From: Parcubacteria bacterium C7867-006
Lineage (GTDB): Bacteria; Patescibacteriota; Minisyncoccia; Phycocordibacterales; DATDWN01
NCBI GenBank assembly: GCA_001189155.1
Contig: LFCP01000004.1
Coordinates: 1,998 to 65,997, forward strand
Direction: 5' to 3'
DNA length: 64,000 nt
Position numbers and translations under genes: made by a program. Numbering within the stretch: position 1 is the first letter of the stretch; every line of letters starts with the position of its first letter. This document shows, piece by piece, positions 3,156-63,313 of the stretch. The notes under the pieces were generated by a model. The model saw only the letters and a list, made by a program, of their open reading frames with translations. It ran no database searches and was not told the DNA's origin.

Positions 3156-3841
3156 TGGCTCAGGAAAATGTTTGGGAAAGGGAATATAGAAAATCAAAAC
3201 TTTTAACAAAAGAGAACAAACCACAGTCAGATGTGGTTCGTTTTGTTCAGTTTTTAAAAAAGGAAGAAGGACTAATTCCTGAAAATTTAAGTATTTTGGA
3301 TCTTGGTTCTGGAACAGGAAGAAATAGTTTTTATTTTGCAGAAATAGGGAATAAGGTTTTGGGTTTAGAAATATCAAAAACTGCAATAGAAATAGGAAAT
3401 GATAATGCAAAAAATGCTGGTTTGAATGTTAAGTATATAAAGCAAAGCATTGGAGAAATATTTCCATGTGACAGTGAGTCAGTTGATGTTGTTTTAGACG
3501 TTACATCATCCAACTCCTTAAATGAGTCAGAAAGGGAAGTGTTTCTATCTGAAACAAATCGTGTTTTAAAAAGTGGAGGGTATTTTTTTACAAAAGCTCT
3601 GTGTAAAGATGGTGATGATAATGCAAAATTTTTAATAAAAAATTTTCCAGGAAAAGAAAAAGATACATATATAATGCCTGAGCTCGGGGTGACAGAGCGA
3701 GTGTGGACCAAAGATGATTTTGTTCAGACCTATGAGAAATATTTTAAAATTTTACATATGGAAAAAAAGACAAGTTATTCTCGTATGAACAGTCGGAGCT
3801 ATAAAAGAAACTTTTGGATTGTGTATATGAAAAAAGCTTAA
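3155..3841 (+). CDS. class I SAM-dependent methyltransferase
   Basis: Motif I LDLGSGTGRNSFYFAE. Confidence 0.6.
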   Translation: MAQENVWEREYRKSKLLTKENKPQSDVVRFVQFLKKEEGLIPENLSILDLGSGTGRNSFYFAEIGNKVLGLEISKTAIEIGNDNAKNAGLNVKYIKQSIGEIFPCDSESVDVVLDVTSSNSLNESEREVFLSETNRVLKSGGYFFTKALCKDGDDNAKFLIKNFPGKEKDTYIMPELGVTERVWTKDDFVQTYEKYFKILHMEKKTSYSRMNSRSYKRNFWIVYMKKA

Positions 3842-3843
3842 TA

Positions 3844-3871
3844 TTGACTTTTTTAAAAAATAAGTTATACT
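3844..3871 (+). promoter_or_regulatory. sigma70-like promoter TTGACT-N16-TATACT upstream of the GC-rich clpP-like cassette
   Basis: TTGACT at 3844-3849, TATACT at 3866-3871, about 26 nt before RBS aaaggggag and ATG 3898. Confidence 0.4.
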
Positions 3872-3897
3872 ATGTGGCTAGGAAAGGGGAGTTAGCT

Positions 3898-4470
3898 ATG
3901 AATGACTTGCAGAGAAGGTGGCTTGAGAAGAATCGCATCGGCATCATCGACGAGGTCAATCGCGACATGTTCGTTTATGTTCGCGAGGCAATCGCCATCA
4001 AAATGGGTGAAGGTGGCCCACCAATCACAGTTCACATCTCAAGTGGTGGTGGCGCTGTTGTATGGGGTCTCGATATCTATGACCTCATCAACTTCTACCC
4101 GGGCAAGAAGGTCGGGGTCGTACATTCTATGGCGGCATCGATGGCATCCATCATCCTCCAGGCGTGTGACTGGCGAACGGCAACACCTTACGCTTCAGTT
4201 CTGATTCACCACGTGAACAACCAGAACCTCAAGCTGGATGTTGCCAGAGACAAGAATGAGCTCGAGAAGTTCATCGCCGGCATGGAGAAGAGCCAGAGCA
4301 AGTTGTATGAGATTCTTGTTCGGCGCACTGGAAAACCGATGGAGGAAATCAGTGCCCGTTGCAAGATGGAAGAATCCATGACTGCGCAGGAGGCGCTCAA
4401 CTATCACCTCATCGACCAGATTGTGGTTCAGGAGTCTGACGTGGTGATTCCAGAACCCGAAAAGAAATAA
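3898..4470 (+). CDS. ClpP-like serine protease (S14 family) encoded on a GC-rich islet
   Basis: Aligns by eye to ClpP: GGAVVWGLDIYD, catalytic Ser context VHSMAASMASI, His context SVLIHH, and the C-terminal EALNYHLIDQIV block. The ORF-track start at 3814 is an AT-rich in-frame extension. The true start is ATG 3898, preceded by an SD. GC-ending codons contrast with the flanks. Confidence 0.65.
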   Translation: MNDLQRRWLEKNRIGIIDEVNRDMFVYVREAIAIKMGEGGPPITVHISSGGGAVVWGLDIYDLINFYPGKKVGVVHSMAASMASIILQACDWRTATPYASVLIHHVNNQNLKLDVARDKNELEKFIAGMEKSQSKLYEILVRRTGKPMEEISARCKMEESMTAQEALNYHLIDQIVVQESDVVIPEPEKK

Positions 4471-19570: not shown

Positions 19571-20767
19571 ATGATAACTGAAAATAATAAAGCTTTCAAA
19601 GATATACCCTTAAAGATATATGAGCCCGAGTTTGGTTCTGAACTGACTAACATTATTATTGAACTAGAGAAGCTTCGTGTTAAAAAATTAGGTGGGCCCG
19701 TTCCACCTCATATATTTTTCCAATTAAAAGAAATTTTTCAAATGTTTGAGAGTCTTGGTTCTGCCAGAATAGAAGGAAATCGAACTACCTTGTCTGAATT
19801 TGTTGAAAAAATCATTGAGAATCCAACTAAAAAAACAAAAGACGACGGTCTTAAAGAAATTTATAATATTGATAATGCAATTCAATTTATAGAAAAGAAT
19901 GTTGATAGTAAAACAAATTTTAGCCGCTATTTTATTTCTGAAATTCATAAAATTTTGGTTGATGGGCTTACACCACCTCCAACGGGGGAGGGATCTAGGT
20001 ATCCTGGTCAATTTAGACCAGTAAACGTTACCATTAACAAGTCCTCCCTTATTTCACCCGAACATGTTCAGGTGCCAGAATATATGGAAGAGTTATTAGG
20101 GTTTGTGAATCAACCAAGAACATCTCAGTACCATCTTCTTGTAATGGCTTTAGCACATCATAGAATGGCATGGATTCATCCGTTTGATAATGGAAATGGA
20201 AGAATGGTTCGTATGTTTACCTATGCTCTTTTGATCAAACAAGGTTTTAAGGTTAAGAGTGGAAGAATTATTAATCCTACAGCAATTTTCTGTATGGATC
20301 GTAATAAGTACTATGAAAAATTAGCTCATGCAGATTCTGGAACGAGAGAAGGTGTTTTGGAATGGTGCACTTATGTATTAGAGGGGTTACGTTCAGAAAT
20401 AGAAAAAATAGATAATCTCTTAGATTTAAAATATATGACCAATACAATTCTTATACCTGCATTAGATTTTGCTTTAGAGAGAGAAAACATCACAAGACGG
20501 GAGTATGAAATACTGGTTTTTATTGTAAAAAATAAAGGTATGGAGATTCGCCCTATTGATCTAAAAAAAGCAATTGGAAAAGATAGTGTTGTTGAAAGAT
20601 CAAGAATATTAAAAAAGTTAAGAGATAAAAAAATGGTTGAGCCTATTGGTAAACAGAATGGGAGGATATACACTATAAGTTTTGCTAATAATTATCTATT
20701 AAGAGGTATTGCCCATGTGCTGGAGAAAAATGGCTTTGTCCCAGAATCTTTGAATAAGAAAGATTAA
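19571..20767 (+). CDS. Fic family protein (putative AMPylase) with N-terminal inhibitory motif and C-terminal winged HTH
   Basis: Fic core HPFDNGNGRMVRMFTYALL (HxFx(D/E)GNGR). Upstream SARIEGN fits the (S/T)xxxE(G/N) auto-inhibition helix. Confidence 0.8.
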   Translation: MITENNKAFKDIPLKIYEPEFGSELTNIIIELEKLRVKKLGGPVPPHIFFQLKEIFQMFESLGSARIEGNRTTLSEFVEKIIENPTKKTKDDGLKEIYNIDNAIQFIEKNVDSKTNFSRYFISEIHKILVDGLTPPPTGEGSRYPGQFRPVNVTINKSSLISPEHVQVPEYMEELLGFVNQPRTSQYHLLVMALAHHRMAWIHPFDNGNGRMVRMFTYALLIKQGFKVKSGRIINPTAIFCMDRNKYYEKLAHADSGTREGVLEWCTYVLEGLRSEIEKIDNLLDLKYMTNTILIPALDFALERENITRREYEILVFIVKNKGMEIRPIDLKKAIGKDSVVERSRILKKLRDKKMVEPIGKQNGRIYTISFANNYLLRGIAHVLEKNGFVPESLNKKD

Positions 20768-47877: not shown

Positions 47878-48492
47878 ATGCGAGATTTCTTGTTTTTCCT
47901 GCTCGCTACTTTCCTCCTGTTACCAAATGTAGCAGAAGGAAAAAGCAGCCTAGTTGGAAGCACTGTCTCTCAACACAAACAAAACGACCACGCCGAAGAA
48001 GAAGGTCTTCCTCAAATCAGAAATGATGAGGAACTAAACACTCTAAAAGAATCCGGAGCGCTCGTCCCAATTCCGGGAACCGTAAGAGTGGACTACCGAC
48101 TAGAAGACAAATGGCGTTGGTGTCTTCCCCAGACATCGTTCTTTCTTGGAGATATTGGACTCGAGTTCCAAGAAGTTTTTGGAAAACGACTCCAAATCAA
48201 CTCGGCAGTCAGGACAACACTGAGACAAATTGAGCTCCAAAAAACGAACAACAACGCTGTACCTGTCACTGGTCGTCGTCGGTCTTCCCACCTCACTGGG
48301 GCAACAGTGGACATTGCCAAAATCGGTCTCACAAAAGATGAACTTGAGTGGGTTCGATTAAAACTCCTCTCTCTAGAAGACGAGGAAAAACTGGAGGCAA
48401 CAGAAGAACACGATCAACTCGTTTTCCATGTAATGATTTTCCAGAGCTACACAAACGAAGCCAAGGCTTCGGAACTGCGAGCGCAGCAATAG
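47878..48492 (+). CDS. secreted LAS-superfamily zinc peptidase (peptidase M15 / DUF882-like) on a GC-rich islet
   Basis: Signal peptide MRDFLFFLLATFLLLPNVAEG. SAVRT ... RSSHLTGATVDI matches the SxHxxGxAxDI metal-binding motif of M15/VanY-like peptidases, with a second His later (FHVM). Confidence 0.5.
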   Translation: MRDFLFFLLATFLLLPNVAEGKSSLVGSTVSQHKQNDHAEEEGLPQIRNDEELNTLKESGALVPIPGTVRVDYRLEDKWRWCLPQTSFFLGDIGLEFQEVFGKRLQINSAVRTTLRQIELQKTNNNAVPVTGRRRSSHLTGATVDIAKIGLTKDELEWVRLKLLSLEDEEKLEATEEHDQLVFHVMIFQSYTNEAKASELRAQQ

Positions 48493-48508
48493 GCGCTCGC
48501 AGTTTTTC
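48476..48508 (+). terminator. intrinsic terminator, perfect 10-bp GC stem + T-run
   Basis: ctgcgagcgc agcaatag gcgctcgcag ttttt. Confidence 0.6.
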
Positions 48509-48516
48509 TTTAATAA

Positions 48517-48552
48517 GAAAACTCCCGAAACCTTGCTAGGGTCTCGGGAGTG
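48517..48552 (-). terminator. intrinsic terminator for the convergent minus-strand gene
   Basis: actcccgaaacc ... ggtctcgggagt stem. The minus-strand reading is followed by a U-rich run. Confidence 0.5.
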
Positions 48553-48570
48553 ACTGAGAATACTGGAGAA

Positions 48571-49410
48571 CTAGGTCTTCAGCACGCCGAAGAACTGACG
48601 TGCAGCAGCCTGAACCGCAGTGAGCTCAGCTTCAGCCTTATCAGCCCGACTCTTCTCTTGAGCCAAGGCTTCGTTCGCCAACTTCAGATCAGCGGTGACT
48701 TTCGCAACCTCCTCGCGGTAAAGCTCAAGCTCCGCGAGCTGATCCTGGGTAGAAGCAATCTGCCCCTCGAGTTCAGAGACTCTCATGGACAGATCGGTGC
48801 TCTGTTTCTGCAGTGGAGCGATCGAGCGACGGAGTTCGTCACACTCCTGCTCCTTCCTGATAAACAGTTGATACTGTTTGAGAACATTGTCGATGACCTC
48901 ACCCAGGTTGGGAATCCCACTTCGGAACTTCTCCAACTGACGGGCAGAATCGCTCCAGCCCTTATAGGGAGAAGACGAGCCGTTCCCGTCAGCCTTGTTC
49001 AGATCCTGAACAAGAACCGACGGAACAGGACCCTGATCCTCCACCGATGGATGTTCCTTCGGCTTCTCCTTTTCATTCGGGTAAGCCGAACTAAGAAGAT
49101 CCCGAATCTCAGCGGGGGTCAGAGTCTTGGGATGAAGAATCGCTCCATCGGGCCGGTCGTTCTTGATCTTCATCGTCAGCTCGTGATCGACGAAGCGGGT
49201 CTGAAGAATGAGTCCCGTGTTGCTCGGAACTGTGCACTTCTTACTGTCATCAGTGAACCAGAACAGCAAACGTCGGTCGCCCTTGTTGTACCAACCACCC
49301 ATGTTGCTCGGCCTGACGCCAGCAACAAGAATGGTGCCGTTGTTGGCGAGAACTGTCTTGGCCTGTTCGATGAGAGTGCTGGTGATCATGATCCGCTCCT
49401 TTTCCGACAC
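48571..49410 (-). CDS. hypothetical protein: N-terminal globular domain + C-terminal coiled-coil (GC-rich islet)
   Basis: RBS aaaggag 7 nt before the ATG on the minus strand. The C-terminal 110 aa is heptad-rich (LQKQSTDLSMRVSELEGQIASTQDQLAELE...). The antisense 297-aa plus-strand ORF is rejected. Confidence 0.5.
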   Translation of the reverse strand: MSEKERIMITSTLIEQAKTVLANNGTILVAGVRPSNMGGWYNKGDRRLLFWFTDDSKKCTVPSNTGLILQTRFVDHELTMKIKNDRPDGAILHPKTLTPAEIRDLLSSAYPNEKEKPKEHPSVEDQGPVPSVLVQDLNKADGNGSSSPYKGWSDSARQLEKFRSGIPNLGEVIDNVLKQYQLFIRKEQECDELRRSIAPLQKQSTDLSMRVSELEGQIASTQDQLAELELYREEVAKVTADLKLANEALAQEKSRADKAEAELTAVQAAARQFFGVLKT

Positions 49411-49509
49411 GTCCGTTTACCACGGACTGGGTTGAGGATTTAAAAAGAACACCTCGAAGGAGGATTATGACATGATTGTTATAATTTGTAAATATAACTA
49501 CTATTTTGT

Positions 49510-50385: not shown

Positions 50386-51204
50386 ATGGCAAAGAAAAAA
50401 CAAATCGGAATGAAATGGAAATACACTCTTGGTTTGCTCGGTATATCATTCGGAAGTCTTTTGGGAATGATGTTCTACTATCATCTAGATTTATCCCTAC
50501 TCGCTTCCCTTTCGTTCTATGAAAATCTAGCAAACCCATCAATCAGAATTGTTAGAGTTCAAGAAGGACTACGTAAGGAACAAATCGCAGAGGTTTTTGG
50601 AGATAAACTTGGTTGGTCAGAGAGAGAAAAAGAAGAATTTATAAACGCCCACCTAGCTTTAAACAGTCAGAACCTAGAAGGTAGATATTTCCCAAAAACT
50701 TATATGGTTCTAAAGGACGAAGACCCTATGGGAGTAACTAGTAATATGCTCCACGAATTCATAAAAGAAACCTCTACAATTAAAAAACCGAAACCTTCAG
50801 AAATACTAAATCAAGATACAGTAATAAAAATTGCTTCCATAATCCAAAGAGAAGCTGGTGGAAAAAGTGATATGAAATTAATCTCTGGAATTATCTGGAA
50901 CAGACTTTTCAAAGGAATGAAACTTCAGATTGATGCGACTCTACAGTATGCAAAAGGTTCAGAGGAAGATGGATGGTGGACAAAAGTAGATCCCGAAGAT
51001 AAATCAATCGACTCTTACTACAATACTTATAAATACAACGGCCTTCCACCTAGTGCTATATCAAACCCAGGTTTAGCTGCATTAGATGCTGCATACAATC
51101 CGCAAAAAACAAATTGTCTTTACTATCTGCATGATAAAAAAGGACGGATACATTGTTCTACAACATACGAAGGACATAAAGCTAATATAAAAAAGTACCT
51201 ATAA
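50386..51204 (+). CDS. YceG/MltG-family endolytic transglycosylase, second paralog
   Basis: N-terminal TM and YNTYKYNGLPPSAISNPGLAALDAAYNP. The same signature occurs in 39073..40071. Confidence 0.7.
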   Translation: MAKKKQIGMKWKYTLGLLGISFGSLLGMMFYYHLDLSLLASLSFYENLANPSIRIVRVQEGLRKEQIAEVFGDKLGWSEREKEEFINAHLALNSQNLEGRYFPKTYMVLKDEDPMGVTSNMLHEFIKETSTIKKPKPSEILNQDTVIKIASIIQREAGGKSDMKLISGIIWNRLFKGMKLQIDATLQYAKGSEEDGWWTKVDPEDKSIDSYYNTYKYNGLPPSAISNPGLAALDAAYNPQKTNCLYYLHDKKGRIHCSTTYEGHKANIKKYL

Positions 51205-51212
51205 AATAAACC

Positions 51213-51239
51213 AGGTCGCACTCCGTAGAATGCGACCTG
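51213..51239. terminator. bidirectional hairpin terminator
   Basis: caggtcgca ctccgtagaa tgcgacctg, lying between convergent genes. Confidence 0.5.
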
Positions 51240-51263
51240 AGGGTAAATCTTGTGCCGTGGGTG

Positions 51264-51527
51264 CTAGTCGTGACCCTCCGGACTCATGTTGAGGTTGTCC
51301 CAGCGACAGGCCTTGAGCCCCTCGCAAGAATTGAAGAACGTGCACTTGCGCGCCTCGGAGCCGAGCTGGCAACCGCGCGTCTGGCGATCTCCCGTCGTGA
51401 TGTGACTGAAGAGGATCTCATCAGACTGAATCCTGTTCAGACGCCCTGGCAGGGTAACTCCCTGCAGGGCCCGAAATTCCTCCACAACTTCGATGTGACG
51501 TGTGACTTCGCGGGACAAACCTTCCAT
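51264..51527 (-). CDS. small 4-Cys hypothetical protein (87 aa), GC-rich islet
   Basis: RBS gaggagg 8 nt before the ATG. C-terminal Cys cluster C-x9-C-x6-C-x5-C. The antisense plus ORF is rejected. Confidence 0.45.
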   Translation of the reverse strand: MEGLSREVTRHIEVVEEFRALQGVTLPGRLNRIQSDEILFSHITTGDRQTRGCQLGSEARKCTFFNSCEGLKACRWDNLNMSPEGHD

Positions 51528-51685
51528 TATGCGCCTCCTCTAATATAGTACGACTAACACATTTAGCTGTCAAATAATATTTTTAATATACCAACCAAAA
51601 CAAGGATATATTTATTTATAATTTGACAAAATATTGTTATATATGTAGGATTTTTCTCTGAAAGGCCTTAGGAGGGCCTGAGTTC

Positions 51686-51883
51686 ATGGGGAAAGAGACC
51701 AGAGGATTCGCATCGATGTCACCGGAGAAGCAGCGTGAGATCGCAAGCAAGGGCGGCCGGGCCGCACACGAGAAGGGCAAGGCCCACGAGTGGACCAGCG
51801 ATGAAGCTCGTGAGGCTGGACGCAAGGGCGGCATGGCCAGTCGTGGCGGGCGCGGCAAGACTACCGCTCAGCCGACGACCTAG
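51686..51883 (+). CDS. KGG-repeat general stress protein (YciG/Con-10-like)
   Basis: Repeated KGG/RGG motifs (ASKGGRAAHEKGKAHEWTSDEAREAGRKGGMASRGGRGK). RBS aggaggg. GC-rich. Confidence 0.55.
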   Translation: MGKETRGFASMSPEKQREIASKGGRAAHEKGKAHEWTSDEAREAGRKGGMASRGGRGKTTAQPTT

Positions 51884-51904
51884 TCGACAGTAGCAACGCA
51901 ACGC

Positions 51905-51939
51905 AAACGGGGTGAGCCAGATGGCCCACCCCGTTTTTC
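51905..51939. terminator. bidirectional intrinsic terminator
   Basis: cggggtg agccagatggccc caccccg ttttt. Confidence 0.6.
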
Positions 51940-51962
51940 CTATATTGAGAATTTGAAACTTA

Positions 51963-52649
51963 CTATTGAACTGTTGTCTCTATTTTTGCTGTAGCTTTTA
52001 GAGACTCAATGAATGCAGCTATTAACTGTTGTTGTTTAGTGTTAATTATCTGCTGTTTGATTTGCTCTTTGATGTCTTTTAGAGCAGGAGCTCCTTGCTG
52101 ACCTTTTACATTATCATTGTAGTACTTTGAAACTTCTGCATCAGTAGCTGTTGCGGTACTGATATCTATTTTACTTAGGAGGTATTTCTGAATTGTTAAC
52201 TGCTTTGAAACATTCTCTCTAAGCTGTGCTTCTGTAAGATTTGCCTTTGTAAGCTCGGCTGCAAATTTATCTGCACCACCAACTTGAGCAATCAAAGCAT
52301 CTACTTGTTTCTGAACTTCATCAGCTGTAGCTGTTACTCCAGAAGCTTTTACTGCTTGGTTCAACAACTCATTTCCGATTAGATCATTCAAAACTTGAGC
52401 TTTGATTTTAGGAAGCTCAGTGTCTGTATTTACTCCCTGTGACTTAAGCGTAGATATCACTGAAGCCAACTGTGACTCATATGCTGACTTTGTAATATCA
52501 ACGCCATTTACTTTTGCTACTGTTTCAACAACTGGAGCAACAGCAACCTCAGCTTTAGGCTTGCTGTACATTTTGTAACCAACTGCACCGAAAATCACAA
52601 CCAAAACAACTACCACTGCAACTATTTTTTCTTTACTTAATGTATTCAT
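51963..52649 (-). CDS. SurA N-terminal-domain-like periplasmic chaperone-like protein, membrane-anchored
   Basis: N-terminal TM, then an Ala/Lys-rich helical domain similar to the SurA_N / PpiD N-domain. Confidence 0.5.
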   Translation of the reverse strand: MNTLSKEKIVAVVVVLVVIFGAVGYKMYSKPKAEVAVAPVVETVAKVNGVDITKSAYESQLASVISTLKSQGVNTDTELPKIKAQVLNDLIGNELLNQAVKASGVTATADEVQKQVDALIAQVGGADKFAAELTKANLTEAQLRENVSKQLTIQKYLLSKIDISTATATDAEVSKYYNDNVKGQQGAPALKDIKEQIKQQIINTKQQQLIAAFIESLKATAKIETTVQ

Positions 52650-54068: not shown

Positions 54069-54100
54069 GCCCGCGATGGACTAGTCGTCCCATGCGGGCA
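54069..54100. terminator. hairpin terminator downstream of minus-strand islet gene
   Basis: gcccgcgatggactagtcgtcccatgcgggc, immediately after the stop at 54101-54103. Confidence 0.4.
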
Positions 54101-54442
54101 TTACTTTCTGACAAGTCCGAGGTTTGCTCGGACTTTATCGTTCAAATTCTTGATATCTTCAGCCTTCACATCTCCTTTCGGAAGTTCGTTCATCTTGCTC
54201 AGGCACTGAGCCTGAAAAGAAACGTCGTGATCTGCTCTGATAACGAGCAGAGCGGCATCGCTCGAGGCTTGAGCCCCGACCTTCGAGATGGAGGGCCAAC
54301 CAATAGCCCTCACGATGCGTTTCATCACCTGACCGTGTGCCGTTGGCTGAGGTGGATCCGCTCGAGCCATCTCCAAAATCATCTTTGGAATTTCTTCCAC
54401 GACAACTGGTGGATTGTAGAAATGCGAGTTCTTCCAACTCAT
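54101..54442 (-). CDS. hypothetical protein (113 aa) on a GC-rich islet
   Basis: RBS ggaggggg precedes the ATG. GC-ending codons. Overlapping plus-strand ORFs are rejected. Confidence 0.45.
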   Translation of the reverse strand: MSWKNSHFYNPPVVVEEIPKMILEMARADPPQPTAHGQVMKRIVRAIGWPSISKVGAQASSDAALLVIRADHDVSFQAQCLSKMNELPKGDVKAEDIKNLNDKVRANLGLVRK

Positions 54443-54489
54443 AACCCCCTCCAGTTTTATTTATACATCACTTTCAAACAGTGTCAATA

Positions 54490-55047
54490 CTATTCATTAT
54501 CCAAAATGTGCCAGAGGTAAAGAGTAAGATTGGTTCGAGAGCCGAGGTGTGGCTCAGCGAGTTTGAGCATTTGTTTTTCTGACGGAAGTGACTTTAGTTT
54601 GAACGCTTTTTGGAAACCTTTTTTTGTACCCAAATCCCCTAACGGCAAAATATCTGGTCGATTGAGTGCAAAGATAAGAAACATATCTGCTGTCCACGAG
54701 CCTATTCCTTTTACTCTGACTAGGTGTTCTTTCACCTCATCATCCGTCATCTTATGAAAGTTTTTATGATCTATGGTTTTATCTACAAACTTTTCTGCGA
54801 GGTCCGTGAGATACCCAAGTTTCTGTGGAGAAATCCCCGCTCCGCGTAACTCTGCAGTTTTCAGTTTCAGAAAATTCTCTGGTGTAACTTTCTTTCTTCC
54901 AAATAGTGCGAGAAACTTTGTCCGTATCACATTCCCAGCCTTTGTCGATATCTGCTGACCTATGATTGCGTTTGCCAGCGACAAAAACGGATTCTCTGTT
55001 GGAGATATTTTTCTCAGTTTCTTTTTATCTATCTTGAGTTTCATCAA
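54490..55047 (-). CDS. HhH-GPD superfamily DNA glycosylase (AlkA-like 3-methyladenine glycosylase)
   Basis: Helix-hairpin-helix with GIGSWTADMFLIFAL and catalytic Asp context PLGDLG. Confidence 0.65.
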   Translation of the reverse strand: MMKLKIDKKKLRKISPTENPFLSLANAIIGQQISTKAGNVIRTKFLALFGRKKVTPENFLKLKTAELRGAGISPQKLGYLTDLAEKFVDKTIDHKNFHKMTDDEVKEHLVRVKGIGSWTADMFLIFALNRPDILPLGDLGTKKGFQKAFKLKSLPSEKQMLKLAEPHLGSRTNLTLYLWHILDNE

Positions 55048-60415: not shown

Positions 60416-60527
60416 ATTCTAACATTTTTACGTTTTAAAAACGAAAAACTCGCCGGGGTACGCCCGCTAGGTTAGAAAAATAAATTTCTGCAACAAAAAC
60501 ACTAAAATATAAAATCAAAAAACAAAC

Positions 60528-60556
60528 AGCGCACAATCCCGTATGGGATTGTGCGC
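60528..60556 (-). terminator. intrinsic terminator (perfect 13-bp stem) downstream of parB-like gene
   Basis: agcgcacaatccc gtat gggattgtgcgct. The minus-strand reading is followed by a U-rich run. Confidence 0.55.
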
Positions 60557-60572
60557 TTCGGACTCACCGAAA

Positions 60573-61925
60573 CTAGTCCTTACTCCTGACCGTGGTCCTC
60601 AAGTCAACCTGATCGCGGAGCATGGTCAATTTTTCAGCGAGATCATCGATCTCCTTGAGAACGTTCTGTCTGTCCTCAAGTGGACGATTTTGAAAGAGCT
60701 CATCGATTGCACGATGGGGCATGTCAACGAGATGCTCCAAGTTCTCGTTCGCCTTCCGCAGATAGTTGCGCAGGATTACGTAATCCTCTCTTGGACTACG
60801 TCCGGGTGACCCAACCCTGATGCCGGCGGCCGAAGCCAACTGGCGAGCCAGATGTTTGGCCTTCGCAACACTAAGACCCTTCTCGACAGCCTCCTTGCAG
60901 ACTTTGAGTTGAATCTCCCGGCTCTCGATTGACGCCAGGAAAACACCCATGGACTGTGGAAGTGCCGAACGCTCATTGTCGTCCGGCTCCAACATATCCT
61001 GAACTTCCTTTGGCAGGTTGAGAAGCTTCAGGTAGTTGAATGCCCAGACGTCGGTCTTGCCGGTCAACGAGGCGATGATCCTGAGAGCAGCCATCTTGCT
61101 GAGGTCTGCATATTCAGGAAAATCCATCATGCGCCGAATTGAGCGAGCGGTCTCGAGAGGAGTGTGTCCTTCGCGAGCAAAGTTCGCCACGAAAGACTTC
61201 TTGAACTGGTCTTCGGAGTCTTTGACCTCCCTGACCGTAGCGAGCATCTCCTCGACACCGAGCTTGGTGCAAGCACGAAGCCGTCGCTCACCCTCAATCA
61301 GCTCATAGTCAAAGTTGGGGTCATCATCGATCGGACGAACGATGATCGCCGTAACCTGACCAATGGCCTTGATGCTGGTCATGAGTTCCTGCATCTTCTT
61401 GGGACTGAAGTACGTGCGAGGTTGACCCTTGAGGGGTCTCACCCGTTTCGTCTTCACCAGGAACTCACCCTCCCACTTTCTTGGTGCTGGAGGTACAGTC
61501 ACAGGACCGGGGCTGCGCATGAGGTGAGCCGGAATCTGCCGTCTGGTGGTAACACCAGGCACAGCGTAATCAGCTCCGTTACCATTGCCGTTCCCGTTTC
61601 CACCAACTTCATCGCTGAAATAGGTGTTGAGGTTCTTTTCCAGATGGTTCGAGGAGTACTCGGTGTGAATCTGGTCGTCCTTGATGCCGTTCTTTCTTGC
61701 CCACGTTTTGATGATGTTCTCGGCATCTTTCTTCATTGCGTATGGAAGAACGATTCCAACCACACCGTCAGGCACAGTACCGGCGCCAAGGAACTCCCAT
61801 GAGTTCATCCAGTGGACACGTGCTCCAAACCGGAGTTGTGCCTTTCTGGGTAGGCTCATGTTGACGACAATGATCTTTCCACCGGAAGGAAAGGGCAGAC
61901 CACTAGTTGTGTTGCTCAAACTCAA
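60573..61925 (-). CDS. ParB/Srx-fold (ParB N-terminal domain) protein with N-terminal extension and GNGNGNGNG linker. Orphan (no parA)
   Basis: IKAIGQVTAIIVRPID ... YELIEGERRLRACTKLG and NFAREGHTPLETARS match ParB boxes. TTG start with RBS ggagg. GC-rich islet. Confidence 0.6.
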   Translation of the reverse strand: MSLSNTTSGLPFPSGGKIIVVNMSLPRKAQLRFGARVHWMNSWEFLGAGTVPDGVVGIVLPYAMKKDAENIIKTWARKNGIKDDQIHTEYSSNHLEKNLNTYFSDEVGGNGNGNGNGADYAVPGVTTRRQIPAHLMRSPGPVTVPPAPRKWEGEFLVKTKRVRPLKGQPRTYFSPKKMQELMTSIKAIGQVTAIIVRPIDDDPNFDYELIEGERRLRACTKLGVEEMLATVREVKDSEDQFKKSFVANFAREGHTPLETARSIRRMMDFPEYADLSKMAALRIIASLTGKTDVWAFNYLKLLNLPKEVQDMLEPDDNERSALPQSMGVFLASIESREIQLKVCKEAVEKGLSVAKAKHLARQLASAAGIRVGSPGRSPREDYVILRNYLRKANENLEHLVDMPHRAIDELFQNRPLEDRQNVLKEIDDLAEKLTMLRDQVDLRTTVRSKD

Positions 61926-62061
61926 CCTCCGAGGAAATAGTTACGAATTTGTTGGTGCTATTCCGTTTTTCAGTCTAGTAAATATATAAATTATTGTCTA
62001 TGATTCCAAACTATTAGATTTGTTGTGTATTTTTATTTTTTTTGGTAATCTAATTGTTACT

Positions 62062-62150
62062 GGGCCCGTAGCTCATCTGGCAGTTGCGTAGCAACAAGTC
62101 AAATAGCCACATCATTTGAGCAAATGATTAAACGGGTCTAAAACAAGTTT
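62062..62150 (+). pseudogene. degenerate tRNA-Ala copy (5' acceptor + D-arm intact, T-arm deleted, internal insertion)
   Basis: The first 19 nt gggcccgtagctcatctgg are identical to the downstream tRNA-Ala. It also shares cacatcatttg and cgggtc, but cannot form a cloverleaf. Confidence 0.4.
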
Positions 62151-62164
62151 GAAATTTAATATTT

Positions 62165-62237
62165 GGGCCCGTAGCTCATCTGGTAGAGCACATCATTTGC
62201 AATGATGGGGTGGCAGGTTCGAGTCCTGTCGGGTCCA
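62165..62237 (+). tRNA. tRNA-Ala (anticodon UGC)
   Basis: Manual cloverleaf: acceptor GGGCCCG/CGGGTCC with G3:U70, D-arm GCTC-ATCTGGTA-GAGC, anticodon arm CATCA-TTTGCAA-TGATG, T-arm GCAGG-TTCGAGT-CCTGT, discriminator A. CCA is not encoded. Confidence 0.9.
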
Positions 62238-62239
62238 CA

Positions 62240-62270
62240 GAAAAAAGTCCGCTGTAAGGCGGATTTTTTC
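62240..62270. terminator. short hairpin flanked by A6/T6 runs after the tRNA
   Basis: aaaaaag tccgc tgtaag gcgga ttttttc. Confidence 0.4.
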
Positions 62271-62271
62271 G

Positions 62272-62360
62272 TGACCCGAAGTAAAGCGAAGCTTTACTTC
62301 AGGACTCGAACGGAAACCTGGTTACGCGGCGAGTGCGCCGTGTCAGGTTTCCGCGTCCTA
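62272..62360. repeat. structured non-coding segment carrying an inverted 12-nt copy of the tRNA-Ala T-arm plus nested long stem-loops
   Basis: caggactcgaac (62296-62307) is the reverse complement of gttcgagtcctg in the tRNA. Stems cgaagtaaagc/gctttacttcg and cggaaacctg/caggtttccg. Confidence 0.35.
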
Positions 62361-62513
62361 ACTTTTATTGAGTGGCGATGAATTAAAAGTTAGGAAGAGT
62401 CCTGTGTTTCAGAACAAGTGTACTAACCCTATAAGGGTCAAATCCGATATTTAACATTTGACAATCCTCCCAAAATACCGCAATCTTTTGCTCAGAGCGA
62501 GGGAGGCTCTTTA

Positions 62514-62873
62514 ATGCAAAACACTGTCGCAAAAGAAGCGACATTGCAGACTAAAGCCGTAAAATCGTGGCTGAAATCTGCAGGTTACAGAGAAGTAACC
62601 AGGATGGACCTCAAAGCTAATGGGGTTCTCATCATGGTAGACACGACAAGAATCAAACCGGTTGAAGATGGTGAGATCAAAGCAGGTTACACTGCGGGCA
62701 CCACACTAGTTCAACTCGGCAACCCACCGATAACCGAAAGCGAAATGTTCGGCGGGCTTGAAGTTCTACACTTCCAGATGACCTACCCTGCAATGGGCAG
62801 ACATTCGTTTGTGCCGGTAGACGATGTGCTTACCGGCAAAGAGTCAACGCTCTGGTTTGTTGAAAAGGAGTAG
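62514..62873 (+). CDS. hypothetical protein (119 aa), paralog A of a tandem pair on a GC-rich islet
   Basis: RBS gagggagg precedes the ATG. Shares blocks with the next ORF: GVLIMVDTTRI~CIVMVDVQRL, EVLHFQMTYPAMGRHSFVPVDDVL~KVVHFRHIERASHRPDFVPLEEIL, LWFVEK~RYFVRR. Confidence 0.45.
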   Translation: MQNTVAKEATLQTKAVKSWLKSAGYREVTRMDLKANGVLIMVDTTRIKPVEDGEIKAGYTAGTTLVQLGNPPITESEMFGGLEVLHFQMTYPAMGRHSFVPVDDVLTGKESTLWFVEKE

Positions 62874-62877
62874 ATAG

Positions 62878-63258
62878 GTGGACAATCCACGTTACTTTGA
62901 AGAGGAGATCTTCAAAGCCAAAGCTGTCATGGCGCAACTCGGCTTCGATCCAGTCAAACTGGAGGACATCGTCGCGGACAACTGTATCGTGATGGTGGAT
63001 GTCCAGCGACTCTGCGCCCACAACGCACCTCCAAGCAAACTCGGTGAGGCAGGAACGTCGGTCATCTGCATCGACAACGAGCCAATCCGTGAGCACGAAA
63101 GGATTGCTGGACGAAAGGTGGTCCACTTCCGCCACATCGAGAGAGCTTCCCACAGACCAGACTTTGTCCCTTTGGAGGAAATACTCCGAGACGAGTACGA
63201 CCCGCGAGTCGCCAACTCGTCCGACACGCGCTACTTCGTGAGGCGCAAACGCGATTAG
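62878..63258 (+). CDS. hypothetical protein (126 aa), paralog B of tandem pair
   Basis: GTG start with RBS aaaggag, 4 nt after paralog A's stop. Homology blocks as above. Confidence 0.45.
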   Translation: MDNPRYFEEEIFKAKAVMAQLGFDPVKLEDIVADNCIVMVDVQRLCAHNAPPSKLGEAGTSVICIDNEPIREHERIAGRKVVHFRHIERASHRPDFVPLEEILRDEYDPRVANSSDTRYFVRRKRD

Positions 63259-63282
63259 CGCTACGACTAGACGTCGCACGAG

Positions 63283-63313
63283 AGCCCCGGCCGATACCGG
63301 GGTTCTTTTTTTA
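63283..63313 (+). terminator. intrinsic terminator (ccccgg/ccgggg stem + T7)
   Basis: gagccccggccgataccggggttcttttttt. Confidence 0.6.

What the first reader, a model, noticed from the sequence alone, without database searches (positions are those of the whole stretch)
60440..61950. Orphan ParB/Srx-fold protein with novel N-terminal domain and GNGNGNGNG linker, on a GC-rich islet abutting the tRNA-Ala locus
The ParB N-domain boxes (GQVTAIIVRP, ELIEGERRLRAC, FAREGHTPLETARS) are intact. The protein also has about 180 extra N-terminal residues, including a Gly-Asn dipeptide repeat, and a long C-terminal helical region. There is no parA and no parS-like repeats nearby.

Stand-alone ParB-like proteins occur on plasmids, on phages (as nucleases or CTPases) and in some defence contexts. 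Its placement directly beside tRNA fragments suggests a remnant or active cargo of an integrative element.
Basis: partly seen in the sequence, partly recalled or inferred. Interest (0 to 1): 0.6.

Follow-up and report, generated by a model that had tools for sequence, protein, structure and literature searches.

The report
Orphan ParB clamp with new domain
An intact, stand-alone ParB-type DNA-clamp gene of a small Patescibacteria-specific family carries a previously undescribed N-terminal domain. It sits in an oddly GC-rich gene islet beside a tRNA-Ala gene that is a rearrangement and integration hotspot in related genomes.

Summary
ORF 60573-61925 (minus strand; the likely true start is 61919) encodes a 448-450 aa protein with significant ParB_N and HTH_ParB hits. 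It has about 150 extra N-terminal residues, a variable Gly-Asn linker and a helical C-terminus. There is no parA and no detectable parS.

The protein belongs to a Patescibacteria clade of orphan ParBs. All members lack the ParA-binding motif, and all lack the Box III glutamate needed for CTP hydrolysis in B. subtilis ParB. The N-terminal 100 aa form a confidently modelled small alpha/beta domain. It has no Pfam, PDB or viral relative and occurs in only 23 clusters among 1.84 billion representative proteins. Elsewhere it is fused to coiled-coil tails.

The gene has GC3 of 0.63 against 0.2-0.3 for its neighbours. Orthologues in four other AT-rich genomes show the same contrast, and in the three where the flank is visible they lie next to an identical tRNA-Ala(UGC). 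In relatives the ParB-tRNA unit is inverted, ParB can be absent, and a large-serine-recombinase element abuts the tRNA.

My reading is a horizontally acquired, lineage-specific, ParA-independent CTP-type DNA clamp. It is not a nuclease or defence gene. The integrative-element idea is only partly supported. This is a new variant of a known kind, of moderate interest.

The parts
60528..60557 (-). Intrinsic-terminator-like hairpin (13-bp stem followed by a T run) just after the ParB stop codon. It marks the left edge of the GC-rich islet.
   Evidence: (I20)
60573..61925 (-). ParB-long coding sequence, 450 aa from the first TTG. The probable true start is the TTG at 61919 (448 aa), which has GGAGG 6 nt upstream.
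61608..61898 (-). N-terminal alpha/beta domain (about aa 10-106). It has 4 strands and 4 helices in a Rossmann-like sandwich, with invariant P13 and W43. No known family matches it.
61476..61607 (-). Disordered, low-complexity linker (aa 107-150) that includes the GNGNGNGNG run. Its length and sequence are not conserved among homologues.
61212..61454 (-). ParB N-terminal (CTPase-fold) domain, aa 158-238, with Box I QPR and Box II GERR. Box III follows at aa 246-252 as ANFARE and lacks the catalytic Glu.
   Evidence: PMC8494293
60837..61163 (-). ParB-type helix-turn-helix DNA-binding domain, aa 255-363.
60609..60794 (-). C-terminal pair of long helices (aa 378-439), the presumed dimerisation region. 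No Pfam family other than ParB_N and HTH_ParB hits the protein. The canonical ParB relatives carry an extra precomputed domain, PF23552, that is not listed for this family.
61981..62009 (-). Sigma-70-like promoter match (TTGGAA-17-TATATT) in the AT-rich spacer. The surrounding sequence is conserved with L098 and L099.
62061..62128 (+). Pseudo-tRNA: a copy of the 5' 22 nt of tRNA-Ala plus an anticodon-arm-like stretch, preceded by the tRNA promoter-like sequence. It is conserved in L099 and decayed in L098.
   Evidence: (D5)
62165..62238 (+). tRNA-Ala(UGC), transcribed divergently from ParB. The 74-nt sequence is identical in L004, L098 and L100, and almost all of it was found as exact matches in L104.
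62265..62445 (+). GC-rich non-coding stretch predicted to fold into a multibranched hairpin structure. No known RNA family matches it.
62514..62873 (+). 119-aa GC-rich ORF, a paralogue of the next ORF. It belongs to an orphan family.
62878..63258 (+). 126-aa GC-rich ORF (GC3 0.68). Relatives lie beside ParB-long or tRNA-Ala in L098, L004 and L104.
63280..63307 (+). Terminator-like hairpin at the right edge of the GC-rich islet.

Best explanation
The gene encodes a ParA-independent ('orphan') ParB/Noc-type DNA clamp of a Patescibacteria-specific clade.

**Shown.**
- It has a ParB CTPase-fold domain with Box I and Box II intact, a ParB helix-turn-helix and a helical C-terminal region.
- It forms a complete unit: promoter-like site, ribosome-binding site, coding sequence and terminator.
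- It has no ParA-binding motif, and no parA is present in the window.

**Inferred.**
- A dimer recognises a still unidentified parS-like site through the helix-turn-helix. It then binds CTP (or another NTP), closes its N-terminal gate and slides along DNA.
- The Box III glutamate is Ala throughout the clade. In B. subtilis ParB this residue (E111) is required for CTP hydrolysis. The clamp is therefore expected to hydrolyse slowly or not at all and to stay closed for a long time. In B. subtilis that state still supports SMC recruitment but not ParA-driven segregation.
- In canonical ParB the ParA-contacting motif lies near the N-terminus. Here that position is occupied by a new alpha/beta domain of about 100 aa on a flexible 45-aa linker.
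- In other Patescibacteria proteins the same domain is fused to coiled-coil tails, occurs in tandem, or stands alone. I therefore take it to be a partner-binding or self-association module that tethers the DNA-bound clamp to something else.

**Origin.** The gene and the small ORFs beside it have the base composition of GC-richer Patescibacteria. In such genomes the same family sits in conserved chromosomal contexts with matching composition. In this AT-rich lineage it most likely arrived by horizontal transfer. It now resides at the tRNA-Ala(UGC) locus, a hotspot for inversion, gene loss and insertion of serine-recombinase elements.
For: **ParB identity.**
- PHROG hits are ParB-like partition proteins.
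- The best solved relatives by sequence are Noc, Spo0J and ParB (E 3e-31 to 1e-22), ahead of KorB at 2e-12.
- The best relatives by fold are CTP/CDP-bound ParB and Noc.

**Motifs.**
- All 34 closest relatives (P0001-P0034) lack LG[RK]GL.
- Wherever Box III could be read in them, it carries Ala, Val or Ser in place of Glu.
- Most canonical relatives (P0035 onward) have LG[RK]GL, and nearly all of those with a readable Box III have ENLQRE.
- E111Q abolishes CTP hydrolysis but not clamp closure or SMC recruitment (PMC8494293).

**No parA.** None appears in any of the loci whose genes were listed. Orphan ParBs are a recognised class (10.1101/2025.10.10.680097).

**N-terminal domain.**
- It is conserved in 14 full-length homologues.
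- The model has pLDDT 84.
- It occurs in 23 clusters among 1.84e9 representatives, including coiled-coil fusions.
- One such fusion, P0072, lies next to MgsA, just as ParB-long does in L001 and L010.

**Transcription unit.** See and the ribosome-binding site.

**Composition and locus.** See for composition. See for the locus comparisons.
Against: - No binding site was found. There is no parS consensus above chance. No palindrome is shared between orthologous loci. The one perfect 16-bp palindrome inside the gene is not conserved.
- Nucleotide binding, clamp closure and dimerisation are all untested. Nucleotide specificity of this fold cannot be predicted from sequence (10.1101/2025.10.10.680097).
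- The N-domain role is inferred from its fusion partners only.
- A simple 'old transfer, then vertical descent' does not explain why GC3 has stayed near 0.6. Synonymous sites between orthologues are saturated and four of the orthologues form a 98% clade.
- ParB is absent from the same locus in L104, whose flanking genes are 72-82% identical to the window. The gene may therefore be dispensable. That contig is only 7 kb.
Confidence: 0.6

Rival explanations
1. The ParB gene, the tRNA-Ala and the small GC-rich ORFs form a small integrative or invertible element, or its remnant. In this reading ParB serves the element, in maintenance or as a KorB/BisD-like regulator. The element moves among hosts and inserts at tRNA-Ala.
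For: - GC3 is 0.60-0.66 for ParB and 0.52-0.81 for the small ORFs. Host genes have 0.21-0.30 in most of the five AT-rich genomes, and somewhat more in L099.
- ParB is next to an identical tRNA-Ala(UGC) in the window, L004, L098 and L100.
- The orientation of the ParB-tRNA unit relative to Ddl differs between the window, L004 and L100 on one hand and L098 and L099 on the other.
- ParB is absent in L104.
- Large serine recombinase genes in L098 and L104 end inside the tRNA.
- A duplicated tRNA 5' fragment is present.
- The small-ORF content differs between genomes.
- Saturated synonymous sites without loss of the GC excess fit separate acquisitions from a GC-richer pool.
Against: - The window has no match to that serine recombinase beyond the tRNA overlap (tblastn). 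No recombinase or replication gene was recognised among the ORFs of the islet and its flanks.
- The recombinase genes of L098 and L104 have host-like AT-rich composition (GC3 0.28 in L098) and lie on the opposite side of the tRNA from ParB. They look like a separate element.
- The tRNA 3' end is not duplicated.
- No full-length relative occurs in phages, plasmids or IMG/VR contigs.
- In L001 and L010 the family sits in a conserved chromosomal context without a tRNA and with host-like composition.
- The AT-hosted copies form one clade.
Confidence: 0.25
2. It is the organism's ordinary chromosome-partition ParB. It would work with a ParA encoded elsewhere and with parS sites near the origin, outside this window.
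For: - It scores above the TIGR00180 cut-off.
- Its closest solved relatives are chromosomal ParB, Spo0J and Noc.
- parS sites could lie outside the 64 kb.
Against: - It has no LG[RK]GL ParA-binding motif, and a globular domain occupies that position.
- The catalytic Box III Glu is missing. ParABS function depends on that residue in B. subtilis.
- No parA is adjacent in any homologous locus whose genes were listed.
- The gene's composition is foreign.
- GC skew and gene orientation converge at about 21 kb, which suggests a terminus-like region rather than an origin.
- The gene is absent in L104.
Confidence: 0.08
3. It is a ParB-like nuclease or an anti-phage defence component, like the stand-alone ParB-fold proteins of phages, plasmids and defence islands.
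For: - Weak PHROG hits are labelled nuclease (phrog_12047, phrog_940).
- There is a marginal PADLOC hit (PD-Lambda-5_A, E 0.0087, 13 bits).
- Variable, partly defence-like genes lie next to ParB in relatives: SLFN/AlbA_2 in L100, and DUF2726, a helicase with an S24 peptidase domain and a methylase in L004.
Against: - The stronger matches are all to partition-type ParB, with helix-turn-helix and C-terminal region included.
- The PADLOC hit has no matched stretch passing threshold.
- No partner defence gene is conserved beside it across loci.
Confidence: 0.04

Closest known systems
Chromosomal ParB/Spo0J (TIGR00180; PF02195 + PF17762), the CTP-dependent parS-loading sliding clamp
   Same: - It has the CTPase-fold domain with Box I QPR and Box II GERR.
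- It has the ParB helix-turn-helix, followed by a linker and a helical C-terminal region.
- It is about 30% identical to solved ParB and Spo0J over some 210 residues.
   Different: - It has no ParA-binding LG[RK]GL motif and no parA.
- The Box III Glu is replaced by Ala.
- It carries an extra 100-aa N-terminal domain and a 45-aa linker.
- PF23552, precomputed for the canonical relatives, is not listed for it.
- No parS was found, and the gene is not at an origin-like position.
Noc (nucleoid occlusion protein, TIGR04285), an orphan ParB paralogue that clamps DNA and binds the membrane through its N-terminus
   Same: - Noc gives the best sequence and profile matches (98.9 bits; E 3e-31).
- Both are orphan and ParA-independent.
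- In both, the N-terminus carries an added function instead of contacting ParA.
   Different: - The score is far below the Noc cut-off of 315 bits.
- Noc's N-terminal element is a short amphipathic helix (established knowledge). Here it is a globular alpha/beta domain.
- Noc keeps the ENLQRE Glu.
- Noc is a Firmicutes family.
KorB / BisD / VirB: ParB-like CTP switches of plasmids and integrative elements that regulate transcription
   Same: - They use the ParB fold outside segregation and are encoded on mobile DNA (reviewed in 10.1101/2025.10.10.680097).
- KorB is a detectable relative (E 2e-12; fold hits).
- Small co-located ORFs could in principle be partners, as KorA is for KorB.
   Different: - It is much closer to chromosomal ParB and Noc than to KorB.
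- No regulated promoter or operator is known.
- The small ORFs match no family.
- No plasmid or ICE backbone is present.
Short orphan ParBs of Parcubacteria, Jorgensenbacteria and Niyogibacteria (P0014-P0030, about 300 aa)
   Same: - They share the core and C-terminal region at 36-41% identity.
- Most have the same ANF[AG]REGHT Box III, and none has a ParA-binding motif.
- They are also stand-alone and often GC-richer than their surroundings.
   Different: They lack the N-terminal domain and linker.

Membership tests
ParB/Spo0J family (Pfam PF02195 + PF17762; NCBIfam TIGR00180) | ParB_N (CTPase-fold) domain above the curated threshold | tested here: met
   PF02195 scores 60 bits against 26.3. 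TIGR00180 scores 86.9 bits against 58.45.
ParB/Spo0J family (Pfam PF02195 + PF17762; NCBIfam TIGR00180) | ParB-type helix-turn-helix DNA-binding domain | tested here: met
   PF17762 scores 35.9 bits against 22.6. It aligns through the helix-turn-helix of Noc and Spo0J.
ParB/Spo0J family (Pfam PF02195 + PF17762; NCBIfam TIGR00180) | Box I (QPR) and Box II (GERRxRA) nucleotide-binding motifs | tested here: met
   The motifs read LKGQPRTYF and LIEGERRLRAC. Q168, R170 and G212-R215 are invariant in the family.
ParB/Spo0J family (Pfam PF02195 + PF17762; NCBIfam TIGR00180) | Box III ENLQRE with the glutamate required for CTP hydrolysis (B. subtilis E111) | tested here: not met
   The motif is VANFARE. 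Ala247 is nearly invariant in the family. The role of E111 comes from PMC8494293.
ParB/Spo0J family (Pfam PF02195 + PF17762; NCBIfam TIGR00180) | N-terminal ParA-binding motif LG(R/K)GL and an adjacent parA gene | tested here: not met
   There is no such motif and no ParA-type Walker A ORF in the window. No parA appears in the homologous loci.
ParB/Spo0J family (Pfam PF02195 + PF17762; NCBIfam TIGR00180) | Cognate parS sites near the gene | tested here: inconclusive
   The parS consensus is not enriched. No palindrome is shared between loci. Sites could differ in sequence or lie outside the window.
ParB/Spo0J family (Pfam PF02195 + PF17762; NCBIfam TIGR00180) | CTP binding, parS-stimulated clamp closure and sliding | not testable with these tools
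   This needs purified protein. Specificity is not predictable from sequence (10.1101/2025.10.10.680097).
Noc (TIGR04285) | Score above the equivalog cut-off | tested here: not met
   98.9 bits against a cut-off of 315.
Noc (TIGR04285) | Short N-terminal membrane-targeting amphipathic helix | tested here: not met
   The N-terminus is a 100-aa globular alpha/beta domain. The Noc feature is taken from established knowledge.
tRNA-linked integrative element / genomic island | Compositional deviation from the host and presence/absence variation among relatives | tested here: met
   GC3 is 0.63 against 0.2-0.3. ParB is absent in L104, and the small-ORF content varies between genomes.
tRNA-linked integrative element / genomic island | Integrase or recombinase gene inside the element | tested here: not met
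   tblastn with the L098 recombinase finds nothing in the window except the tRNA overlap. No recombinase was recognised among the ORFs listed from 55.5 to 64 kb. Recombinases in L098 and L104 are AT-rich and lie on the other side of the tRNA.
tRNA-linked integrative element / genomic island | Direct repeat of the tRNA 3' end marking the far boundary | tested here: not met
   The tRNA 3' 22-mer occurs once. Only a 5' fragment is repeated, 103 bp upstream.
ParB-like nucleases / defence-system ParB-fold proteins | Match to a defence or nuclease model, or a conserved defence partner gene | tested here: not met
   PADLOC gives only 13 bits with no passing stretch. The PHROG nuclease-labelled hits are much weaker than the partition-labelled ones.

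The most novel reading that the evidence does not exclude
The N-terminal domain defines an undescribed Patescibacteria-specific system. In it, DNA-bound, hydrolysis-impaired ParB clamps are coupled through this domain to coiled-coil proteins carrying the same domain. This would be a ParA-free way of positioning or organising the chromosome.

In addition, the ParB/tRNA-Ala/small-ORF cassette may be a compositionally self-maintaining unit, possibly invertible or mobile. Its GC-rich state would be actively kept up in AT-rich genomes by selection on the DNA or by repeated site-specific replacement.
Probability: 0.12. Interest if true: 0.7.

Novelty: new variant of a known kind. Interest (0 to 1): 0.45.

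Why it matters
Patescibacteria have tiny genomes, and little is known about how they organise or segregate DNA. A clade-wide orphan ParB has lost both the ParA contact and the hydrolysis glutamate. In a subset it has gained a private N-terminal domain that is shared with coiled-coil proteins. This is a concrete, testable candidate for a ParA-independent use of the CTP clamp.

The protein is a natural equivalent of the laboratory E111 mutants, so it could show what a long-lived ParB clamp is good for.

Separately, the gene stays about 20 GC points above five AT-rich host genomes despite saturated synonymous divergence. That is an unexplained pattern in genome evolution and deserves a population-level look.

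Tried and rejected
1. **A second N-domain protein in the window.** By eye, the N-terminus of the GC-rich 279-aa coiled-coil protein (48571-49410) resembles the ParB N-domain. hhalign gave E 0.16 and 0.018 at very low probability. An HMM built from 27 N-domains scored it at 1.4 bits. Rejected.

2. **A split-off N-domain gene.** The 141-aa ORF upstream of the short ParB in L006 showed no similarity to the N-domain.

3. **A known family for the N-domain.**
   - Pfam gave nothing on single sequences or on all 14 members.
   - A PDB sequence profile gave nothing.
   - Foldseek against PDB and viral models gave a best E of about 7e-3 with TM at or below 0.54, all generic Rossmann, helicase-lobe or receiver folds.
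   - My recollection that it might resemble DUF2325 found no support.

4. **parS.** The consensus scan, shared palindromes across 9 loci and the perfect palindrome AGGATTACGTAATCCT at 60772 all led nowhere. That palindrome is not conserved in orthologues.

5. **Phage or plasmid origin.** Only matches to the ParB core at about 25-33% identity turned up, and none covered the N-domain.

6. **Small ORFs.** Pfam, PHROGs, NCBIfam and PADLOC gave no significant hit. Homologue searches found only 7 proteins. The P0087 context look-up failed.

7. **ParB tree against locus type.** The placement of L004 was unresolved, so the tree could not decide between vertical descent and replacement.

8. **Rfam.** The non-coding parts gave only sub-threshold noise.
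Full report
**1. The observation**

The window is a low-GC bacterial chromosome (about 0.30-0.38 GC). It carries ordinary housekeeping genes: LeuRS, AlaRS, GluRS, DnaK, DnaJ and YceG.

ORF 60573..61925 on the minus strand encodes 450 aa.
- Pfam finds ParB_N at aa 158-238 (E 2.4e-16) and HTH_ParB at aa 255-363 (E 8.5e-9), both above gathering scores.
- NCBIfam TIGR00180 is above its cut-off. The Noc model is far below its own, at 98.9 against 315 bits.
- A GGAGG sequence lies 6 nt upstream of the second TTG at 61919. Homologues begin MSNT.., so the product is probably 448 aa.
- A promoter-like site at 62009-61981 and a 13-bp-stem terminator at 60557-60528 bracket the gene. It is therefore an intact monocistronic unit, not a relic.

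The GC-rich islet is real.
- GC is 0.52-0.55 across the gene.
- GC3 is 0.63, against 0.16-0.33 for most genes of the window.
- A second GC-rich stretch runs from 62240 to 63300 on the other side of tRNA-Ala(UGC), which lies at 62165-62238. It holds two paralogous small ORFs of 119 and 126 aa, 33% identical to each other.

There is one tRNA fragment, not several. The 5' 22 nt of the tRNA recur at 62062-62083 with one mismatch. The tRNA 3' end is not repeated.

There is no ParA-type Walker A ORF, no LG[RK]GL motif and no parS consensus above chance.

**2. What the protein is**

A search of 5.8 billion proteins found 13 full-length relatives at 30-86% identity. It also found about 20 shorter relatives of some 300 aa that lack the N-terminal part. 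Those with source names are Parcubacteria, Niyogibacteria, Jorgensenbacteria or Saccharibacteria MAGs.

The family alignment shows four regions:
- a conserved N-terminal block of about 100 aa, with invariant P13 and W43;
- a linker that varies in length and sequence, of which the Gly-Asn run is one version;
- a well conserved ParB core;
- a conserved helical C-terminus.

AlphaFold2 models the N-terminal block as a four-strand, four-helix alpha/beta sandwich. pLDDT is 84 when it is modelled alone and 71-87 in the full-length model. Residues 107-150 are disordered.

The core matches solved Noc, Spo0J and ParB structures by sequence profile (E 3e-31 to 1e-22) and by fold. KorB is clearly more distant.

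*Motifs.* Box I (QPR) and Box II (GERR) are invariant in the full-length family. Box III reads ANFARE where canonical proteins have ENLQRE.

The 67 homologues split almost cleanly.
- None of P0001-P0034 has the ParA-binding motif. Wherever their Box III could be read, the Glu is replaced.
- Most canonical ParBs from P0035 onward have the motif, and nearly all of those with a readable Box III have the Glu.

In B. subtilis ParB, E111Q abolishes CTP hydrolysis. It leaves CTP binding, gate closure and SMC recruitment in place, but it impairs ParABS-dependent segregation (PMC8494293).

I therefore infer a ParA-independent clamp with slow or no hydrolysis. This is an inference from sequence. Nucleotide preference of this fold cannot be predicted reliably (10.1101/2025.10.10.680097).

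*The N-terminal domain.*
- It has no Pfam match.
- It has no relative among PDB sequences.
- It has no significant structural neighbour in PDB or BFVD. The best E is about 7e-3, to generic Rossmann-like folds.
- A profile search of 1.84 billion representative proteins found only 23 clusters.

Besides ParB-long, those clusters include:
- the domain followed by a coiled-coil tail (P0072, P0079, P0080);
- two tandem copies plus a coiled coil (P0076, P0078, P0081);
- the domain on ParB remnants that keep only the helix-turn-helix and C-terminus (P0071, P0075);
- the domain alone (P0068, P0077).

P0072 lies divergently next to an MgsA-type AAA gene. ParB-long has the same neighbour in L001 and L010.

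The domain has no conserved catalytic-looking residues. I read it as a partner-binding or self-association module. It stands where canonical ParB carries its ParA-contacting motif.

**3. The locus in relatives**

Three arrangements exist.

- *A (window, L004, L100):* Ddl, then GC-rich small ORFs, then tRNA-Ala(UGC), then divergent ParB, then variable genes.
- *B (L098, whose ParB is 60% identical, and L099):* the small ORFs are followed directly by ParB. Ddl precedes them in L099. The ParB-tRNA unit is inverted relative to A. In L098 the tRNA comes next, followed by a 519-aa large serine recombinase. The last 21 codons of that recombinase are the antisense of the tRNA's 3' part, and a further AT-rich ORF lies upstream of it.
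- *C (L104):* its small ORFs, 98-aa ORF and Ddl are 72-82% identical to the window's. The order is Ddl, 98 aa, 126, 119, tRNA, recombinase. There is no ParB on the 7-kb contig.

The 74-nt tRNA is identical in the window, L004, L098 and L100. L104 carries the same gene.

The ParB promoter region and the tRNA 5' pseudo-copy are conserved between the window and L099. They are decayed in L098.

The window and L100 are syntenic over about 15 kb. Orthologues are 44-82% identical and ParB is 47% identical. The window has extra GC-rich insertions that L100 lacks.

A second group of genomes, L001 and L010-L013 at about 47-50% GC, carries ParB-long between a polysaccharide flippase gene and MgsA. There is no tRNA nearby, and composition is close to that of the neighbouring genes.

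**4. Composition**

In the five AT-rich genomes, ParB has GC3 of 0.60-0.66 and the accompanying small ORFs 0.52-0.81. Neighbouring genes mostly have 0.21-0.30. L099 is more mixed, with Ddl at 0.37 and ADK at 0.71.

The recombinase of L098 is host-like at 0.28.

Four-fold synonymous sites between the ParB orthologues are essentially saturated. The window, P0002, L098, L099 and L100 form a 98% neighbour-joining clade, and L004 is unresolved.

One old transfer followed by vertical descent should have erased the GC excess. Repeated site-specific replacement from a GC-richer pool would explain the excess. However, there is no recombinase of matching composition and no extrachromosomal relative. I leave this unexplained.

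**5. Verdict**

The molecule is best described as a lineage-specific orphan ParB/Noc-type clamp with a new N-terminal domain and a hydrolysis-impaired Box III. It was horizontally acquired and sits at a tRNA-Ala recombination hotspot.

The nuclease and defence alternatives are not supported.

Orphan ParBs and domain fusions to this fold are already a recognised theme (10.1101/2025.10.10.680097). This is therefore a new variant of a known kind. It has two features worth follow-up: the private N-terminal domain shared with coiled-coil proteins, and the persistent compositional anomaly.

Noticed in passing
window 62265-62445 (+): This non-coding GC-rich stretch lies between the tRNA-Ala terminator and the 119-aa ORF. 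It folds into a multibranched set of long hairpins. The RNA MFE of 62239-62513 is -104 kcal/mol, z = -6.65 against shuffles. It matches no Rfam family, is unique in the window and in the fetched loci, and is absent from the close relative L104.
   Followed up: partly
window 62061-62128 (+); L099 1-35; L098 about 2365-2410: This is a pseudo-tRNA. The 5' 22 nt of tRNA-Ala are followed by an anticodon-arm-like stretch and preceded by a promoter-like sequence. In L104 that same sequence directly precedes the real tRNA. An extended copy is conserved in L099, and a decayed one is present in L098. It looks like a scar of an old event inside the tRNA gene.
   Followed up: partly
window 3814-4470, 47878-49443, 51204-51963, 54092-54520: These are further gene-sized GC-rich islets with GC3 of 0.43-0.64. 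They hold a ClpP-like protease, a DUF5715 protein with a 279-aa coiled-coil protein, a 65-aa Gly/Lys/Arg-rich ORF (not run through Pfam), and a 113-aa ORF. The 47878-49443 islet is missing at the syntenic site of L100, so at least some of them are insertions.
   Followed up: partly
L098 793-2352 and L104 2924-4477: These large serine recombinase genes are 60% identical to each other. Their 3' ends run into the antisense of tRNA-Ala(UGC). The last residues, ..DPTGLEPATPSL.., are encoded by the tRNA. This points to an AT-rich mobile element that uses this tRNA as its attachment site.
   Followed up: partly
window 62514-62873 and 62878-63258; L098 4573-4962; L004 7365-7718; L104 4599-5340: This is an orphan family of proteins of about 120 aa with a conserved C-terminal R(Y/W)F motif. 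Only 7 members were found in 5.8 billion proteins. Every member whose context could be read lies beside ParB-long or the same tRNA-Ala.
   Followed up: partly
L010 7460-7978 and 11324-11995; L103 5583-7562: ECF-type sigma-70 genes and M23 peptidase genes lie next to N-domain proteins in two unrelated loci. In L010 the sigma factor ends 23 bp before ParB-long. This is a faint hint of a link to envelope or division functions.
   Followed up: no
window about 21000: GC skew changes from positive to negative here, and gene orientation changes from plus to minus, so genes converge on this point. The region looks terminus-like. A Fic-domain gene (19571-20767) lies beside it.
   Followed up: no
L015/L022 10001-10849, L036, L034, L074, L052: The short orphan ParBs of other Patescibacteria are also local GC peaks, 5-17 points above their flanks. 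Distant canonical ParBs match their flanks. The compositional oddity may therefore be a property of the whole orphan clade.
   Followed up: partly
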